Below are positions 545 to 13,402 of a DNA stretch of 17,832 nt, piece by piece. Below the pieces are notes generated by a model, which saw nothing but the letters and a program-made list of their open reading frames with translations, did no database searches and was not told where the DNA came from. How positions within the stretch are numbered: position 1 is the stretch's first letter; each line of letters opens with the position of its first letter. Source of the stretch: a virus (Duplodnaviria; Heunggongvirae; Uroviricota; Caudoviricetes); the IMG/VR virus record IMGVR_UViG_2703718823_000018; one strand, given 5' to 3'. The translations under genes were made by a program, and so were the position numbers.

Positions 545-550
545 GCATGT

Positions 551-576
551 AAAAAGGCTCCTGCGATGAGGAGCCT
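551..576 (-). terminator. Intrinsic terminator, minus-strand orientation, downstream of the tRNA array
   Basis: Perfect 8-bp stem (aggctcct 555-562 / aggagcct 569-576); on the minus strand it is followed by TTTTT (complement of 551-555). Confidence 0.5.
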
Positions 577-883
577 GGATATATGCCTAATCTCTGTATA
601 CAGCATGATGCCGGGTGCCTCCCGGTGAGTTCAGTATCAGCACCTGAACCCGCACCAGATAAGGGATATAACCAACCACCTGTCGCTGATATGCCCCTCC
701 GCACAGGGGGATTCACCATGCCAGTTTCTTTTAACAAATACTCAGTCTGACAGGCAACTGTCAACTGACTGAATTGTGAGACATTTAAAATTTTCGGGGC
801 ATGACTGATACCCGGCTAACCACCTGATGCTTCCTTTTTTAGCAACAAACAGGTCCACCAAAGTGAGACAGAAAAAATAAGTG

Positions 884-960
884 TGGCGCGTTGTACTGGA
901 TTCGAACCAGTGACCGATTGCTTAGAAGGCAATTGCTCTGTCCGGCTGAGCTAACAACGC
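884..960 (-). tRNA. tRNA-Arg (anticodon UCU)
   Basis: Reverse complement gcgttgttagctcagccggacagagcaattgccttctaagcaatcggtcactggttcgaatccagtacaacgcgcca folds as a cloverleaf: 7-bp acceptor stem, TTCGAAT T-loop, anticodon loop cTTCTAa, 3' CCA. Confidence 0.85.
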
Positions 961-973
961 ATGATGCTGATAA

Positions 974-1050
974 TGGACCGCCATCGAGGACTCGAACCCC
1001 GCGCAGCCAGCTCCGAAGGCTGGCGCTCTATCCCGATGAGCTAATGGCGG
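974..1050 (-). tRNA. tRNA-Arg (anticodon UCG)
   Basis: Reverse complement ccgccattagctcatcgggatagagcgccagccttcggagctggctgcgcggggttcgagtcctcgatggcggtcca: acceptor ccgccat/atggcgg with a C1:G72 pair, anticodon loop cTTCGGa, TTCGAGT T-loop, CCA end. Confidence 0.75.
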
Positions 1051-1059
1051 TATGTGATA

Positions 1060-1135
1060 TGGTGGCCCTTGCTGGATTTGAACCAGCGACCTGGCGATTA
1101 TGAGTCGCTCGCTCTCACCACTGAGCTAAAGGGCC
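1060..1135 (-). tRNA. tRNA with CAU anticodon, most likely tRNA-Ile2 (ileX/ileZ-like); Met cannot be excluded from the anticodon alone
   Basis: Reverse complement ggccctttagctcagtggtgagagcgagcgactcataatcgccaggtcgctggttcaaatccagcaagggccacca: cloverleaf with anticodon loop cTCATAa. Closely resembles the E. coli ileX sequence as I recall it. The Ile-Arg-Arg trio downstream of Q is typical of lambdoid and Stx phages. Confidence 0.8.
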
Positions 1136-3734: not shown

Positions 3735-4799
3735 TTATGCTTTCCACTTCAGAACACCCGAATTTCTCGCGTGCATTAAAAAACGAATCAGCAACAACAG
3801 CTGACTGCCGTGTTTCTCTTCAAAATCTTTTACTCCGGCGTGTAGTTCGTTATGGCATTTACGGCACAACGGAATAACAAACAAATCGTCAGCCTTTGTT
3901 CCCATACCTCCCAGTCCATGACCAATGATGTGATGCGGATCATCTGCCTGATTGCCACACGTCATGCATTTCTGCGTTTTTACCCAGCGCGTGTATACAG
4001 GCATCTCTTCCCGTTGTGGTTTCTGGCGCTGGAGATACTGAGCCGGAGATTCCGGATCAACGGCAATGCTGACCACCGTCTTTTCCTGTGGTGGGTTCTG
4101 TTGCTGGTGCTGGTGGACGTGAGGCGGTAGCGCAATATTTTTTGTGCGCTGCTTCAGTATGCTAGTGGCTGTCTGTTCTCCCGGTACGATGTCGCTCTCA
4201 CTGTATACGGAGCGGATTTTTTCCACCGGTAATCCCAGTGAACGACGCAATACAGACTCCGGAAGCGCATCAGCCACCTGATTGCAGACCGCCCACCAGG
4301 ATAATTCGGCCAGCGATAACTCCCTCTCCTGCGTACCGCTGATTGCGTGACGGATGACGTCAATCATCCATGCTGACAGGTTTTGATGAGCAAGTTGCCC
4401 GAGTGATTCGGATGTCTGGTCACGCAGCTGGTTGTCGCAGTGCCAGCACAACACCATCGCGCCGGTACCGTAACGATGTATGACGATTTCACTGTGATGA
4501 TAGTCACCATGAGGCCACTGGCAGGATTTGACATGACGCAACAGCCAGTCAGACAGTGCCCCAGCGCCACCAGCAGCACGAATCACCCGATCATCGCTGA
4601 AAAATGGCAGTAATGATTTATCCTCCGCCAGCGGCTGGCGAACAGCAGGGACGACTCCGGACGGCAGATTACGCATGCTTTTCGGTTCCGGCTCCACCAG
4701 TACTCGAGGGTTATGGAATACCTGCATGGATTCACGGCCTGGCTTAACGATAACCAGACCGAGTTCCGGTACCAGAACAGGTCGAAGTAATACCCGCAC
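3735..4799 (-). CDS. ydfU: DUF968-type protein with C-terminal HNH-like motif (YdfU-like)
   Basis: 354-aa ORF; C-terminus CMTCGNQADDPHHIIGHGLGGMGTKADDLFVIPLCRKCHNELH is an HNH/zinc-finger signature. Position between rem/hok and rusA/Q matches Qin. Annotated start is GTG at 4799 preceded by GGAGG; start uncertain. Confidence 0.65.
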   Translation of the reverse strand: MRVLLRPVLVPELGLVIVKPGRESMQVFHNPRVLVEPEPKSMRNLPSGVVPAVRQPLAEDKSLLPFFSDDRVIRAAGGAGALSDWLLRHVKSCQWPHGDYHHSEIVIHRYGTGAMVLCWHCDNQLRDQTSESLGQLAHQNLSAWMIDVIRHAISGTQERELSLAELSWWAVCNQVADALPESVLRRSLGLPVEKIRSVYSESDIVPGEQTATSILKQRTKNIALPPHVHQHQQQNPPQEKTVVSIAVDPESPAQYLQRQKPQREEMPVYTRWVKTQKCMTCGNQADDPHHIIGHGLGGMGTKADDLFVIPLCRKCHNELHAGVKDFEEKHGSQLLLLIRFLMHARNSGVLKWKA

Positions 4800-5145: not shown

Positions 5146-5397
5146 TTATTCTTCTGAAAAAGCAGAAAAGCCAGCTTTTATTCCGATCTCTTTCAATGCC
5201 TGTAATGAAGTGACAAACTCACCGTCGCGCAAGATAAATCCGTCCGTCACTCGGGCATCCACAAAATTAATTAACGCAGCCCCATTTTTTTGCAAACACA
5301 CAATGCGGTAATGACTAACAATATTTCCATTTTCAACGCACACAGCATAGAGGCCATCTTCACAAAAAATTTTACGCAGTTCTTCGATGTTCATCAT
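5146..5397 (-). CDS. rem: Small hypothetical protein (83 aa), Rem-like by size and position
   Basis: ATG at 5397 preceded by GGAAGG. 83 aa, the same length and the same position (between ydfU and hokD) as Rem of Qin; sequence identity is not verified. Confidence 0.45.
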   Translation of the reverse strand: MMNIEELRKIFCEDGLYAVCVENGNIVSHYRIVCLQKNGAALINFVDARVTDGFILRDGEFVTSLQALKEIGIKAGFSAFSEE

Positions 5398-5511: not shown

Positions 5512-5545
5512 TGAAAATAAAAACAAAAACCCGCCGAAGCGGGTT
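5512..5545 (-). terminator. Intrinsic terminator of the hok transcript
   Basis: On the minus strand: aacccgc-TTCG-gcgggtt hairpin followed by TTTTTGTTTTTATTTT. Confidence 0.55.
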
Positions 5546-5613
5546 AAGTGCGAGTGCGTTGAGGATGCCTGACTCATCAGAGGTGGCGAGGGATTTCTCC
5601 CCCGCCTGGTCTC

Positions 5614-5769
5614 TTACTCCTCAGGTTCGTAAGCTGTGAAGACAGTGACCTCCGTCTGGCCGGTTCGGATTCGTACCTCGCAGAGGTCTTTCCTCGTTAC
5701 CAGTGCCGTCACAATGACGGTAATACAGATGACGATCAGGGCGACTAACATCGCCTTTTGCTGCTTCAT
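5614..5769 (-). CDS. hokD: Hok/Gef-family type I toxin (HokD/RelF-like), 51 aa
   Basis: Translation MKQQKAMLVALIVICITVIVTALVTRKDLCEVRIRTGQTEVTVFTAYEPEE: transmembrane helix plus conserved RKDLCEVR and TEV..FTAYE blocks of Hok proteins. AGGAG 8 nt upstream of the ATG. Absent from the ORF track (below 60 aa). Confidence 0.9.
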   Translation of the reverse strand: MKQQKAMLVALIVICITVIVTALVTRKDLCEVRIRTGQTEVTVFTAYEPEE

Positions 5770-5825
5770 AGCCTGCTTCTCCTTGACCTTTCGGTCCGTA
5801 AGAGGCTAATCTCTATGTGTCGCAT
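5766..5825 (-). CDS. mok-like upstream ORF (19 codons) coupled to hok
   Basis: ATG at 5825 (MRHIEISLLRTERSRRSRL); its TGA overlaps the hok ATG (cTATGAag). The uORF start lies inside a hairpin (tctatg-tgtcg-cataga, 5812-5828). Analogous to mok but much shorter than plasmid R1 mok. Confidence 0.4.
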   Translation of the reverse strand: MRHIEISLLRTERSRRSRL

Positions 5826-6027
5826 AGATATGGCCTCAGATTAATGTTAAGCGTCTTGCAGGACGCGTAATGTTAACTGGGGCTTTTCTCTATCTGCCTT
5901 TTGGTGTTCATGCCTGAGACAGATAGCCTCAAGCACCCGCAGTTATTCTACTTAACTAAGATTTCCCCGCAAACCGTTTTTGTCCGGCACAGTAAATATC
6001 CAACTAAACCAATGGCGTTCGCTGTAT

Positions 6028-6207
6028 TTACCGCCAGTATTCAATGCACATGACCGCCATGAACACCCCTAAAAAAAGGGCATTTATATGTCCAAACATT
6101 AATATCAAAACATCAATTTTTTCCATATACCTTGCTGTGAAGATGATGGGCATACATGATGCGAACAACCAGAACGCAACAAACAAAAACTGCAATGCGT
6201 TTTTCAT
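6028..6207 (-). CDS. Small hydrophobic (two-helix) membrane protein, 59 aa, in an AT-rich island
   Basis: ATG at 6207 preceded by a GGGGG Shine-Dalgarno. Translation MKNALQFLFVAFWLFASCMPIIFTARYMEKIDVLILMFGHINALFLGVFMAVMCIEYWR has two hydrophobic segments. Surrounding DNA is visibly more AT-rich than the flanks. Confidence 0.35.
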   Translation of the reverse strand: MKNALQFLFVAFWLFASCMPIIFTARYMEKIDVLILMFGHINALFLGVFMAVMCIEYWR

Positions 6208-6327
6208 TATTCCCCCTACAATCAATGTGCAATAACATTTAAACACACCTCAATTTGGCCGGACATATAAATATCTAAACCAGAAAAAATCACTTACATA
6301 GCGTTACAAACTCTTTAGTCTAAATAT

Positions 6328-6843
6328 TCATCGTAAAACATCCTCCACGCTTATCAGTCCATTTCGTTTCAGGTAATCCATCGCCTTCTCCGGTAATTTG
6401 CAGTCCGGCTGAGCTTTTTTCAGTTGACTGACCAGTCGTTTAACCCACATTGTTAATTCGCTAACCTGATTGCCGGATGCTGGTGGATTGTCGGCTTTAC
6501 CCAGAATGGCAGCGCAGCAGGCCTCTCTGAGCACCCAGTCAACAGCATCCTTCCATGCTCCTGTTTCGACTGGCGGATTCTCACGCTTTACCTGTTCATA
6601 AAAGCGCACGGCTTTAACCAGTCCTTCTGATGTCACCGGGACTGGCGGGCCGATGAATAAGGCCTGAATTTCATAGTTCGGCCTGTCGTTACAATCCTCT
6701 TTTGTCGGTACATATTTCCAGTCACCAGCCCACGGCTTCCCCTGAAAGTCTGTAACGTCTTTTTTCACGTAGCGATATCGCCATGCAACTGGTTTTGCCT
6801 GCCCTGCCGTTTCATGCCCTTCCTGATAATTAATCTTGCTCAT
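6328..6843 (-). CDS. Hypothetical protein (171 aa)
   Basis: ATG at 6843 overlapping the stop of the upstream small ORF (ATGA). Codon composition looks coding; family not recognised. Confidence 0.6.
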   Translation of the reverse strand: MSKINYQEGHETAGQAKPVAWRYRYVKKDVTDFQGKPWAGDWKYVPTKEDCNDRPNYEIQALFIGPPVPVTSEGLVKAVRFYEQVKRENPPVETGAWKDAVDWVLREACCAAILGKADNPPASGNQVSELTMWVKRLVSQLKKAQPDCKLPEKAMDYLKRNGLISVEDVLR

Positions 6844-7016
6844 TCATCGCCCCACTCATCACAATATGCTTCGACCGGAGTTTTTCCTGCTTCATAATCA
6901 TCACGCCATGCTTCAGCATCAGCAGCACTGCCACCACGTAACTCTGCATAGTCCATTAACAGTTCATGCCATGCTTCAAAACTGACGTTGTATTTAGTTG
7001 AACCAAAATCAGCCAT
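6840..7016 (-). CDS. Small acidic protein (58 aa), not in the ORF track
   Basis: ATG at 7016 with AGGAAG upstream. Translation MADFGSTKYNVSFEAWHELLMDYAELRGGSAADAEAWRDDYEAGKTPVEAYCDEWGDE. Stop overlaps the next start (ATGA). Confidence 0.45.
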   Translation of the reverse strand: MADFGSTKYNVSFEAWHELLMDYAELRGGSAADAEAWRDDYEAGKTPVEAYCDEWGDE

Positions 7017-7191
7017 TTTGCTCTTCCTCTTCGTCTTTTATTTCGTGATATGAGTAATTGCAGTAGTTAAAGAAAATATCTTTTGCTTCGTCATGTATTT
7101 CATCAGGCGTCGCATCATCATCCACTTCGAATTCATCCTCGAAATCTCCACCGGCTATTCCCGTTTCAATAATTATTTTAAACTTTCGCAT
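7009..7191 (-). CDS. Small highly acidic protein (60 aa)
   Basis: ATG at 7191. MRKFKIIIETGIAGGDFEDEFEVDDDATPDEIHDEAKDIFFNYCNYSYHEIKDEEEEQNG is strongly D/E-rich. Overlaps the next gene start by 8 nt. Confidence 0.45.
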   Translation of the reverse strand: MRKFKIIIETGIAGGDFEDEFEVDDDATPDEIHDEAKDIFFNYCNYSYHEIKDEEEEQNG

Positions 7192-7284
7192 TTAACTACC
7201 GCCCTTTCGGGCGGCCTCCTGATGTTCTGAGGGTGCAGAAATCCCTCCGGTTAAGGATTAAATTTTTAACAGAGCTAAATTTAA

Positions 7285-7641
7285 TTATTCAGTTCTGGAT
7301 TTTGTCGCCCTGCGTATCCGCGCTTTCGCGTTACGCTCAATCTGAATTAGCTTTTCTATATTTTTTCGCCTTTCCCGCTCCTCCTGGCGCAAGTGCCTTA
7401 CATCATCTGCCAGTCTGGTTTCTCTTTTCGCCACAGAGAGCATCCAGTCAAATGGCTCCACAACTGCACCGCAGATTTTACAGCGGACCTGACGCTCTTT
7501 TTCGTCAACCCGGACAGAGGCGTGATGACAATATGGTCTTTCCGATGGCTCATAAAGAAAATTAACCTGATTACGAGGGTCATCCTCTTTTACCGGAAAT
7601 AAAACGATATTGCTTAACTCATCCTCTGGTTTTATTTCCAT
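7285..7641 (-). CDS. Hypothetical protein with putative zinc-ribbon (118 aa)
   Basis: ATG at 7641 with AGGAGAGG upstream. Contains C-H-H...C-x2-C (PYCHHASVRVDEKERQVRCKICG) and a basic C-terminal tail. Confidence 0.55.
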   Translation of the reverse strand: MEIKPEDELSNIVLFPVKEDDPRNQVNFLYEPSERPYCHHASVRVDEKERQVRCKICGAVVEPFDWMLSVAKRETRLADDVRHLRQEERERRKNIEKLIQIERNAKARIRRATKSRTE

Positions 7642-13344: not shown

Positions 13345-13402
13345 TTTCTGGTGACGTTTGGCGGTATCAGTTTTACTCCGTGACTGCTCTGCCACCCTTT
13401 TT
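13345..13402 (+). ncRNA. dicF: DicF small RNA
   Basis: tttctggtgacgtttggcggtatcagttttactccgtgactgctctgccaccc followed by TTTTT matches my recollection of the 53-nt DicF sequence at all but about one position; located between ydfA and dicB as in Qin. Exact ends are approximate. Confidence 0.8.

What the first reader, a model, noticed from the sequence alone, without database searches (positions are those of the whole stretch)
5512..5950. Stand-alone hokD-like type I toxin with a 19-codon mok-like uORF and candidate antisense promoter, without relBE
In K-12 Qin, hokD (relF) is the last gene of the relB-relE-hokD operon. Here a near-identical Hok ORF is present but no RelE/RelB-sized ORFs lie upstream. 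Instead there is a short uORF whose stop overlaps the hok ATG, a hairpin sequestering the uORF start, and on the opposite strand a good -35 (TTGACC, 5783-5788) with a plausible -10 (GCTAAT, 5805-5810) that would drive a Sok-like antisense RNA across the uORF start. This looks like an autonomous hok/sok-type module, a different regulatory wiring from the K-12 locus.
Basis: partly seen in the sequence, partly recalled or inferred. Interest (0 to 1): 0.45.

Follow-up and report, generated by a model that had tools for sequence, protein, structure and literature searches.

The report
Complete prophage hok/sok toxin-antitoxin module

Summary
Window 5975-5520 (minus strand) holds a complete hok/sok module.

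- **Toxin:** a 51-aa Hok (48/51 identical to K-12 HokD; Pfam HOK_GEF, E 1e-22).
- **Leader:** it matches Rfam RF01794 at 106.7 bits (gathering score 59).
- **Leader ORF:** a 19-codon mok whose UGA overlaps the hok AUG.
- **RNA switch:** the tac, ucb, dcb and fbi elements fold as in the plasmid R1 model.
- **Antisense RNA:** a promoter and a terminator hairpin for a ~72-nt Sok RNA lie on the plus strand.
- **relBE:** no RelB or RelE is encoded anywhere in the window.

K-12 hokD matches only from about 14 nt upstream of the ATG. K-12 is therefore the truncated form and this locus is the intact form.

It is not new. 3,760 of 5,426 complete E. coli genomes carry such a leader. 777 records carry this allele at >=99% identity. 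The 89%-identical hokW-sokW of prophage Sp5 has been tested experimentally.

Two refinements:
- The family-conserved Sok -10 is TAATCT (5807-5812), not GCTAAT.
- mok here is a minority frame variant: 75 of 82 sampled relatives have an in-frame 70-codon mok. Published R1 data show mok needs translating only up to the hok start.

Verdict: interpretation supported, already known, low interest.

The parts
5945..5972 (-). hok promoter: candidate -35 TTGCGG (5972-5967), 16-nt spacer, -10 TAGAAT (5950-5945)
   Evidence: Sequence read. The -10 aligns with R1 hok TATGAT, which mutagenesis validated as the R1 -10 box (PMC9841398). GTTAAGTAGAAT is conserved in mEp460 and Min27. The -35 is weak (3 of 6) and is an inference.
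5927..5938 (-). 5' end of hok mRNA and tac element (GGGUGCUUGAGG)
   Evidence: This is the first position of the Rfam RF01794 match. It aligns with the R1 5' end GGCGCTTGAGG. It is invariant in 66 homologues. It pairs with fbi in the full-length MFE fold and with ucb in the 3'-truncated fold.
5879..5885 (-). ucb / anti-SD (AAGCCCC)
   Evidence: It pairs with the mok SD in the full-length fold and with tac in the fold truncated at 5566 or 5575.
5834..5837 (-). mok Shine-Dalgarno (GAGG)
   Evidence: Invariant in 66 homologues. It is the same GAGG as the R1 mok SD (PMC9841398). It is sequestered in the full-length fold.
5766..5825 (-). mok leader ORF: 19 codons plus a UGA that overlaps the hok AUG (AUGA)
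   Evidence: The ATG is homologous to the mok ATG of hokW, mEp460 and R1-type loci. Relative to the majority, a 2-nt deletion and a 1-nt insertion put it in a different frame.
5802..5806 (-). dcb (GCCUC)
   Evidence: Together with the adjacent UU (GCCUCUU) it pairs with the hok SD region in the full-length fold (helix 6, 100% paired in 66 sequences). It pairs with the mok SD in the fold truncated at 5566.
5778..5783 (-). hok Shine-Dalgarno (AGGAGA)
   Evidence: Invariant in the alignment. K-12 homology begins here.
5614..5769 (-). hok toxin gene (HokD-type, 51 aa)
   Evidence: Pfam PF01848, 79.7 bits. The same locus is annotated hokD in RefSeq genomes.
5552..5564 (-). fbi element (CCUCAACGCACUC)
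   Evidence: It forms 12 base pairs with one bulge with tac in the MFE fold of the 417-nt mRNA (-164.1 kcal/mol, z -6.47). The helix is 100% paired across 66 homologues.
5520..5545 (-). intrinsic terminator of hok mRNA
   Evidence: AACCCGCTTCGGCGGGTT followed by a T run.
5783..5812 (+). Sok promoter: -35 TTGACC (5783-5788), 18-nt spacer, -10 TAATCT (5807-5812)
   Evidence: The homologous motif is TTGCCT-17-TAACCT in 60 of 66 homologues and TTGCGC-17-TATCCT in the R1-type locus (read). In hokW-sokW, mutating the sokW promoter unleashes toxicity (PMC8621323).
5819..5891 (+). predicted Sok antisense RNA (~72 nt): single-stranded 5' tail, long hairpin, U-rich end
   Evidence: Fold -30.8 kcal/mol, z -5.54. 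It is complementary to the mok SD and AUG. The length agrees with the 71-nt sokW complementarity (PMC8621323). The ends are inferred, not mapped.

Best explanation
[quoted passage not shown] It sits in the early-right (nin-like) region of a Qin-like lambdoid prophage of E. coli, between small unannotated phage genes and rem/DUF968.

Proposed mechanism, by homology with plasmid R1 hok/sok and Sp5 hokW-sokW:
1. A ~417-nt hok mRNA starts at 5938 and ends at the terminator near 5522.
2. In the full-length RNA, the 5' tac element pairs with the 3' fbi element, ucb sequesters the mok SD, and GCCUCUU sequesters the hok SD. The RNA is then neither translated nor bound by Sok.
3. Slow 3' trimming removes fbi. 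tac then re-pairs with ucb and the mok SD moves into the SD/dcb target hairpin.
4. While the prophage is present, an unstable ~72-nt Sok RNA made from the plus strand (about 5819-5891) pairs with the mok SD/AUG region. This blocks mok translation and triggers RNase III decay.
5. When Sok is depleted, ribosomes translate the 19-codon mok through the helix that hides the hok SD. They terminate at the UGA of AUGA and hok is translated. The 51-aa membrane toxin is made.

Shown here: sequence homology, all elements present, and in-silico folds consistent with the switch.
Inferred: transcription start sites, 3' processing, Sok instability, toxicity, and the biological role. The role could be prophage maintenance, help with lysis or release after induction as for hokW, or phage exclusion.
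For: - Rfam RF01794: 106.7 bits against a gathering score of 59, E 8.8e-24.
- Pfam HOK_GEF: E 1.2e-22.
- Full-length fold: tac/fbi 12 bp, z -6.47.
- Truncated fold: tac/ucb plus mok SD/dcb with the hok SD free.
- The predicted structure is 96% paired across 66 distinct homologues, against 35-43% when the partners are slid. The tac/fbi and hok-SD helices are 100% paired.
- The Sok fold has z -5.54.
- The Sok promoter hexamers are conserved next to a hypervariable stretch.
- R1 mutagenesis shows mok must be translated only up to the hok initiation region, and stops after the hok start have no effect (PMC9841398).
- This allele is >=99% identical in 777 E. coli records.
Against: - No expression data exist for this locus.
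- Neither promoter reaches the simple sigma-70 scan threshold. The Sok -10 matches the consensus at 3 of 6 positions, and the 18-nt spacer is one longer than in the majority.
- The truncated-RNA fold depends on where the 3' end is placed: one of three cut points gave a different fold.
- mok is frame-shifted relative to 75 of 82 sampled relatives. Coupling efficiency could therefore differ or be lost.
- From my own knowledge (Pedersen & Gerdes 1999; also summarised in bioRxiv 10.1101/2025.08.07.668861), several chromosomal hok loci tested did not mediate post-segregational killing.
Confidence: 0.88

Rival explanations
1. It is a decaying or silenced hok/sok copy. The -2/+1 indels that shift mok out of the usual frame would be a lesion that uncouples mok from hok. 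The toxin would then never be made, and the cassette would be a passenger fossil like several K-12 hok loci.
For: - 75 of 82 sampled relatives keep mok in frame with hok (70 codons). Only the window, L001 and L039 have the 19-codon form.
- One group (L038 type) carries the same +1 insertion but restores the frame with a -1 deletion. This hints at selection for the in-frame form.
- Other decayed copies exist: L017 has the mok ATG changed to ATA, L028 has an IS upstream, and K-12 lacks the leader.
Against: - In R1, mok itself is out of frame with hok, and stops placed after the hok start have no effect. Only translation up to the hok initiation region is needed (PMC9841398).
- Here mok stays open exactly up to the hok AUG (AUGA), a classic coupling arrangement.
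- The hok ORF, both SDs, tac, ucb, dcb, fbi, the terminator and the Sok promoter are all intact.
- The allele is present at >=99% identity in 777 records.
Confidence: 0.1
2. It is the 3' remnant of a relB-relE-hokD operon from which relBE was deleted. It would lack a promoter and regulation of its own.
For: Downstream context is the same as in K-12 Qin: hokD, rem, DUF968 and the Q antiterminator.
Against: - The 170 nt upstream of hok are homologous to the leaders of R1 hok and hokW and to Rfam RF01794, not to relE.
- K-12 homology begins only at about 5783.
- There is no relB or relE similarity anywhere in the window.
- 3,760 of 5,426 genomes carry leader-bearing copies.
Confidence: 0.01
3. 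The cassette is mainly a phage-expressed gene. On this view it is read through from the prophage early-right operon upon induction, and its own promoter and Sok control are secondary. Its role would be to assist host lysis and phage release rather than addiction.
For: - hok lies on the same strand as the surrounding early-right genes: DUF968 at 3735-4799, Rem at 5146-5397, and the ORFs at 6328-7641.
- In Sp5, mitomycin C triggers HokW production and deleting hokW-sokW reduces phage release (PMC8621323).
Against: - This concerns biological role rather than a different identity.
- Read-through transcripts would lack the precise tac 5' end on which the switch depends.
- All the autonomous elements are conserved.
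Confidence: 0.3

Closest known systems
hokW-sokW of Sakai prophage 5 (Stx2 phage) and related Stx phages such as Min27 mokW
   Same: - Same HokD-type 51-aa toxin.
- About 89% nucleotide identity over the whole module.
- Same tac, ucb, mok SD, dcb and fbi elements and the same Sok promoter position.
- Also located in a lambdoid prophage.
- Shown experimentally to be a type I TA whose antitoxin needs RNase III and Hfq (PMC8621323).
   Different: - mokW is 70 codons and in frame with hokW, making it an N-extended Hok (annotated as 213 nt in Min27). Here mok is 19 codons and stops at AUGA.
- The Sok promoter is TTGCCT-17-TAACCT there and TTGACC-18-TAATCT here.
- The sequence of the mok-AUG hairpin, which the Sok 5' tail targets, differs.
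- The Min27 3' end downstream of fbi differs.
hok/sok (parB) of plasmid R1 and IncF plasmids
   Same: - Same architecture and the same order of elements.
- The -10 of hok, the tac 5' end, mok SD GAGG, GCCTCTTAC, CAAGGAGAAG and fbi all align.
- There are 19 mok codons upstream of the hok start in both (PMC9841398).
   Different: - Hok is only distantly similar. The hokW paper gives 44% identity between HokW and R1 Hok.
- The leader hairpin here carries a 21-nt insertion relative to the R1-type locus (the Rfam alignment shows a 16-nt insertion).
- R1 mok runs on for 70 codons in another frame.
- R1 hok/sok is on a plasmid, not a prophage.
hokD (relF) of E. coli K-12 Qin prophage, the last gene of relB-relE-hokD
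   Same: - Toxin 48/51 identical.
- Identical SD, 3' UTR, fbi and terminator.
- Same downstream neighbours, rem and DUF968.
   Different: K-12 lacks everything upstream of about -14: hok promoter, tac, ucb, mok, the Sok target and the Sok -10. These are replaced by relE. The window has all of them and no relBE.

Membership tests
[quoted passage not shown] | Hok/Gef-family toxin ORF of about 50 aa with an N-terminal transmembrane helix | tested here: met
   PF01848 at 79.7 bits (cut-off 22), E 1.2e-22, covering residues 6-47.
[quoted passage not shown] | A leader upstream of hok that matches the hok-leader/Sok covariance model | tested here: met
   RF01794 at 106.7 bits (gathering score 59), full-length model 1-157, window 5938..5767, ending at the hok AUG.
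[quoted passage not shown] | A mok reading frame with its own SD that starts about 57 nt upstream and is open at least to the hok translation initiation region | tested here: met
   GAGG at 5837-5834; ATG at 5825; 19 codons; UGA overlaps the hok AUG. It is shorter than the usual 70 codons, but it meets the functional requirement defined for R1 (PMC9841398).
[quoted passage not shown] | Long-range tac/fbi pairing between the 5' and 3' ends of the full-length mRNA | tested here: met
   In silico only. 5938-5927 pairs with 5564-5552 in the MFE fold. The helix is 100% paired in 66 homologues, with no two-sided covariation because the sequences are too similar.
[quoted passage not shown] | Refolding of the 3'-truncated mRNA into tac/ucb and mok SD/dcb stems | tested here: inconclusive
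   The tac/ucb stem is predicted for truncation at 5566 and at 5575. Both the tac/ucb and the mok SD/dcb stems form only at 5566. Neither forms at 5570. The real 3' processing site is unknown.
[quoted passage not shown] | An antisense Sok gene, with promoter and terminator hairpin, opposite the mok initiation region | tested here: met
   Sequence level only. TTGACC-18-TAATCT at the position homologous to the R1 and hokW Sok promoters. Hairpin plus U-rich tail, -30.8 kcal/mol, z -5.54.
[quoted passage not shown] | Toxicity of Hok, instability of Sok, RNase III cleavage of the duplex, and killing when Sok is lost | not testable with these tools
   Shown only for homologues: hokW-sokW (PMC8621323) and R1 (PMC9841398).
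relB-relE-hokD operon (K-12 Qin configuration) | relB and relE genes immediately upstream of hokD, which lacks a leader of its own | tested here: not met
   tblastn of RelB and RelE finds nothing in the window. The upstream 170 nt is a hok leader.

The most novel reading that the evidence does not exclude
The most novel reading not excluded has two parts.

1. The 19-codon mok ending in AUGA may be a functional, naturally selected alternative way of coupling mok to hok, by pure termination-reinitiation and with no Mok-Hok fusion or overlapping product. It would co-exist in E. coli populations with the 70-codon in-frame form.

2. The hypervariable mok-AUG hairpin, which is the target of the Sok 5' tail (window about 5833-5812), may reflect diversification into mutually orthogonal Sok/hok specificities. 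This would let the several prophage-borne copies in one genome avoid cross-protecting each other.

To my knowledge neither point has been stated explicitly for the hokD/hokW lineage. The recent Hok survey deliberately left mok and Sok unanalysed (bioRxiv 10.1101/2025.08.07.668861).
Probability: 0.4. Interest if true: 0.3.

Novelty: already known. Interest (0 to 1): 0.15.

Why it matters
It matters little for discovery. It mainly corrects a K-12-centred expectation: the "normal" hokD-type locus is a full hok/sok cassette on lambdoid prophages, and relBE-hokD is a derived truncation.

Practical value:
- RefSeq annotates only the hokD CDS at such loci, so mok and Sok could be added.
- The short-mok allele is a natural test of the rule, derived from plasmid R1, that mok needs to be translated only up to the hok start.

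Tried and rejected
- **relBE remnant hypothesis.** Rejected by the alignment with K-12 and by tblastn.
Considered. It is not conserved: GCTAAC with a 15-nt spacer in 60 of 66 homologues. I prefer TAATCT.
- **Simple promoter scan.** It found neither the hok nor the Sok promoter, so the promoter calls rest on homology.
- **Supplementary primers of the hokW paper.** I looked for them to pin down the mutated sokW -10, but no supplement is held.
- **Literature search for mok frame and length variation.** It returned only fungal Monascus mok genes.
- **Covariation for tac/fbi.** The 66 homologues are too similar (94% mean column identity), so there are only one-sided G-C to G-U changes. The conserved pairing is consistent with the structure but is not independent proof.
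- **In-frame N-terminal extension of Hok in this allele.** Excluded, because frame 0 has no start codon upstream of the hok ATG before the next in-frame stop (ORF list).
- **Not used.** I ran no structure prediction or large protein searches, because identity was already unambiguous.

Full report
**What is there**

On the minus strand, window 5769..5614 encodes a 51-aa peptide, MKQQKAMLVALIVICITVIVTALVTRKDLCEVRIRTGQTEVTVFTAYEPEE.
- It matches Pfam HOK_GEF at 79.7 bits, E 1.2e-22.
- It is 48/51 identical to K-12 HokD.

The 172 nt upstream, 5938..5767, match the Rfam model RF01794 end to end at 106.7 bits (gathering score 59, E 8.8e-24). This model is called "sok" but is built in the hok-mRNA sense and ends at the hok AUG. 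An intrinsic terminator, AACCCGCTTCGGCGGGTT followed by a T run, lies at 5545-5520.

- ATG at 5825, preceded by GAGG at 5837-5834.
- 19 codons, MRHIEISLLRTERSRRSRL.
- UGA at 5768-5766, overlapping the hok AUG as AUGA.

**No relBE, and the direction of the K-12 difference**

tblastn of K-12 RelB and RelE against the whole window finds nothing beyond a 7-residue hit at E 3.3.

In K-12 derivatives the order is relB, relE, hokD, rem, DUF968, Q. The window and its best genomic match have hokD, rem, DUF968 with unrelated small phage genes upstream.

A megablast of window 6060-5440 matches K-12 only from query position 278, which is window 5783. The multiple alignment shows K-12 joining at AGGAGAAGCAGGCTATG, with the 3' end of relE upstream.

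The window's upstream 170 nt aligns with the leaders of mEp460, Min27 (hokW) and an R1-type IncFII hok. K-12 hokD is therefore the form that lost its leader.

**Regulatory anatomy**

The 417-nt RNA from 5938 to 5522 folds at -164.1 kcal/mol, z -6.47 against shuffles. In this fold:
- The 5' GGGUGCUUGAGG (tac, 5938-5927) forms 12 pairs with CCUCAACGCACUC (fbi, 5564-5552).
- The mok SD is paired with GCCCC (ucb).
- The hok SD is paired with GCCUCUU.

When the RNA is truncated at 5566 the fold switches:
- tac pairs with AAGCCCC (5885-5879).
- The mok SD pairs with GCCUC (dcb, 5806-5802).
- The hok SD becomes free.

This is the closed-to-open switch described for R1 (PMC9841398). One of three truncation points did not give this fold, so I treat the step as consistent rather than shown.

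I projected the full-length fold onto an alignment of 66 distinct homologous mRNAs.
- 96.1% of cells are paired, against 35-43% for slid partners.
- The tac/fbi and hok-SD helices are 100% paired.
- Two-sided covariation is sparse because the sequences are 94% identical on average.

The hok -10, TAGAAT (5950-5945), aligns with R1 TATGAT, which mutagenesis validated (PMC9841398).

**Sok**

On the plus strand, 60 of 66 homologues read TTGCCT-17-TAACCT. The window reads TTGACC-18-TAATCT (5783-5788 and 5807-5812). The R1-type locus has TTGCGC-17-TATCCT at the same place.

I therefore take TAATCT as the -10 and about 5819 as the start.

Window 5819-5892 folds into a single-stranded 5' tail plus a long hairpin followed by CUUUUCUCU (-30.8 kcal/mol, z -5.54). 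This is complementary to the mok SD and AUG. The length agrees with the 71-nt complementarity reported for sokW (PMC8621323).

**How common, and what is known**

- The 621-nt query matches 4,938 of 5,426 complete E. coli genomes, and 2,524 of them over at least 80% of its length.
- The leader-specific 84-nt segment (5757-5840) matches 3,760 genomes.
- 777 records carry that segment at >=99% identity.
- The 2.3-kb context is in 886 genomes.
- In phage records the homologous genes are annotated MokW, HokD, gef or host killer protein, in Stx phages, mEp460 and others.

hokW-sokW of Sp5, about 89% identical to this module, has been studied directly. It is a type I TA with its own sokW promoter, it depends on RNase III and Hfq, and it contributes to growth arrest and phage release after mitomycin C (PMC8621323). 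A recent survey reports that hok is enriched in prophages (bioRxiv 10.1101/2025.08.07.668861).

The module is therefore already known.

**The one slightly unusual feature**

I sampled 82 loci with enough upstream sequence: 80 IMG/VR loci chosen for Hok similarity, plus reference loci.
- 75 have the mok ATG at -57, in frame with hok. This gives 70 codons, an N-extended Hok, as annotated for Min27 mokW.
- Only the window, L001 and L039 have the 19-codon form.

The difference comes from a 2-nt deletion just after ATGC and a 1-nt insertion (GGTCAAGG against GG-CAAGG). The L038 group carries the same insertion but compensates with a 1-nt deletion and stays in frame.

In R1 itself, mok is in yet another frame: 19 codons upstream of the hok start, 70 in all. 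Stops placed after the hok start have no effect, while stops before it abolish toxicity. The published conclusion is that mok must be translated only up to the hok initiation region (PMC9841398).

The window's mok satisfies exactly that requirement. It runs through GCCUCUU, the partner of the hok SD, and terminates on the hok AUG. I therefore judge the allele functional by inference, confidence about 0.85-0.9. "Decayed copy" is the main rival, at about 0.1.

The allele's frequency, 777 records, argues against a recent lesion. Clonal over-sampling could inflate that number.

**Mechanism and role**

The steps are set out in the best explanation.
- Shown here: homology, the presence and conservation of every element, and folds compatible with the switch.
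- Inferred: transcript ends, 3' processing, Sok turnover, toxicity and biological role.

**Verdict**

The novelty class is "already known", and interest is low.

Noticed in passing
window 5833-5812 (alignment A2 columns 107-130): Among 66 distinct hokD/hokW-type mRNAs, sequence variability peaks sharply at the mok-AUG hairpin, which the Sok 5' tail targets. In contrast tac, both SDs, the hok CDS and fbi are almost invariant. Genomes carry up to 8-9 copies. This could reflect diversification of Sok/hok pairing specificity.
   Followed up: partly
L002 2443-2515; L028 1129-1201; L019 1100-1201: Three leader-less hokD copies all break just 5' of the hok SD and share ACAGGAG instead of CAAGGAG. They are K-12 with relE upstream, L028 with a 362-aa transposase-like ORF upstream, and L019 with unrelated sequence upstream. 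They may share a truncated ancestor or a recombination hotspot.
   Followed up: partly
L017, about 57 nt upstream of hok (locus position ~1144): This IMG/VR copy has the mok start codon changed from ATG to ATA, so it is probably an inactivated cassette.
   Followed up: no
window 13346-13397 (+): DicF antisense sRNA, Rfam RF00039 at 70.1 bits. It lies on the opposite strand from hok, as in the Qin prophage layout.
   Followed up: no
window 545-750 (-) and 884-1135 (-): STnc100 sRNA (RF02076, 174.6 bits), and a cluster of three tRNA genes: Arg-tct, Arg-tcg and a CAT-anticodon tRNA called Met. They lie beyond DUF968 (3735-4799), at the downstream end of the minus-strand genes.
   Followed up: no
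window 6028-6246 (-): A 72-aa strongly hydrophobic ORF lies immediately upstream of the hok promoter. It has no Pfam match. It is conserved with the hok locus in many genomes as a hypothetical protein.
   Followed up: no
RefSeq records matched: PGAP annotates only the hokD CDS at these loci. Neither mok nor the Sok RNA is annotated, although Rfam RF01794 detects the leader.
   Followed up: no
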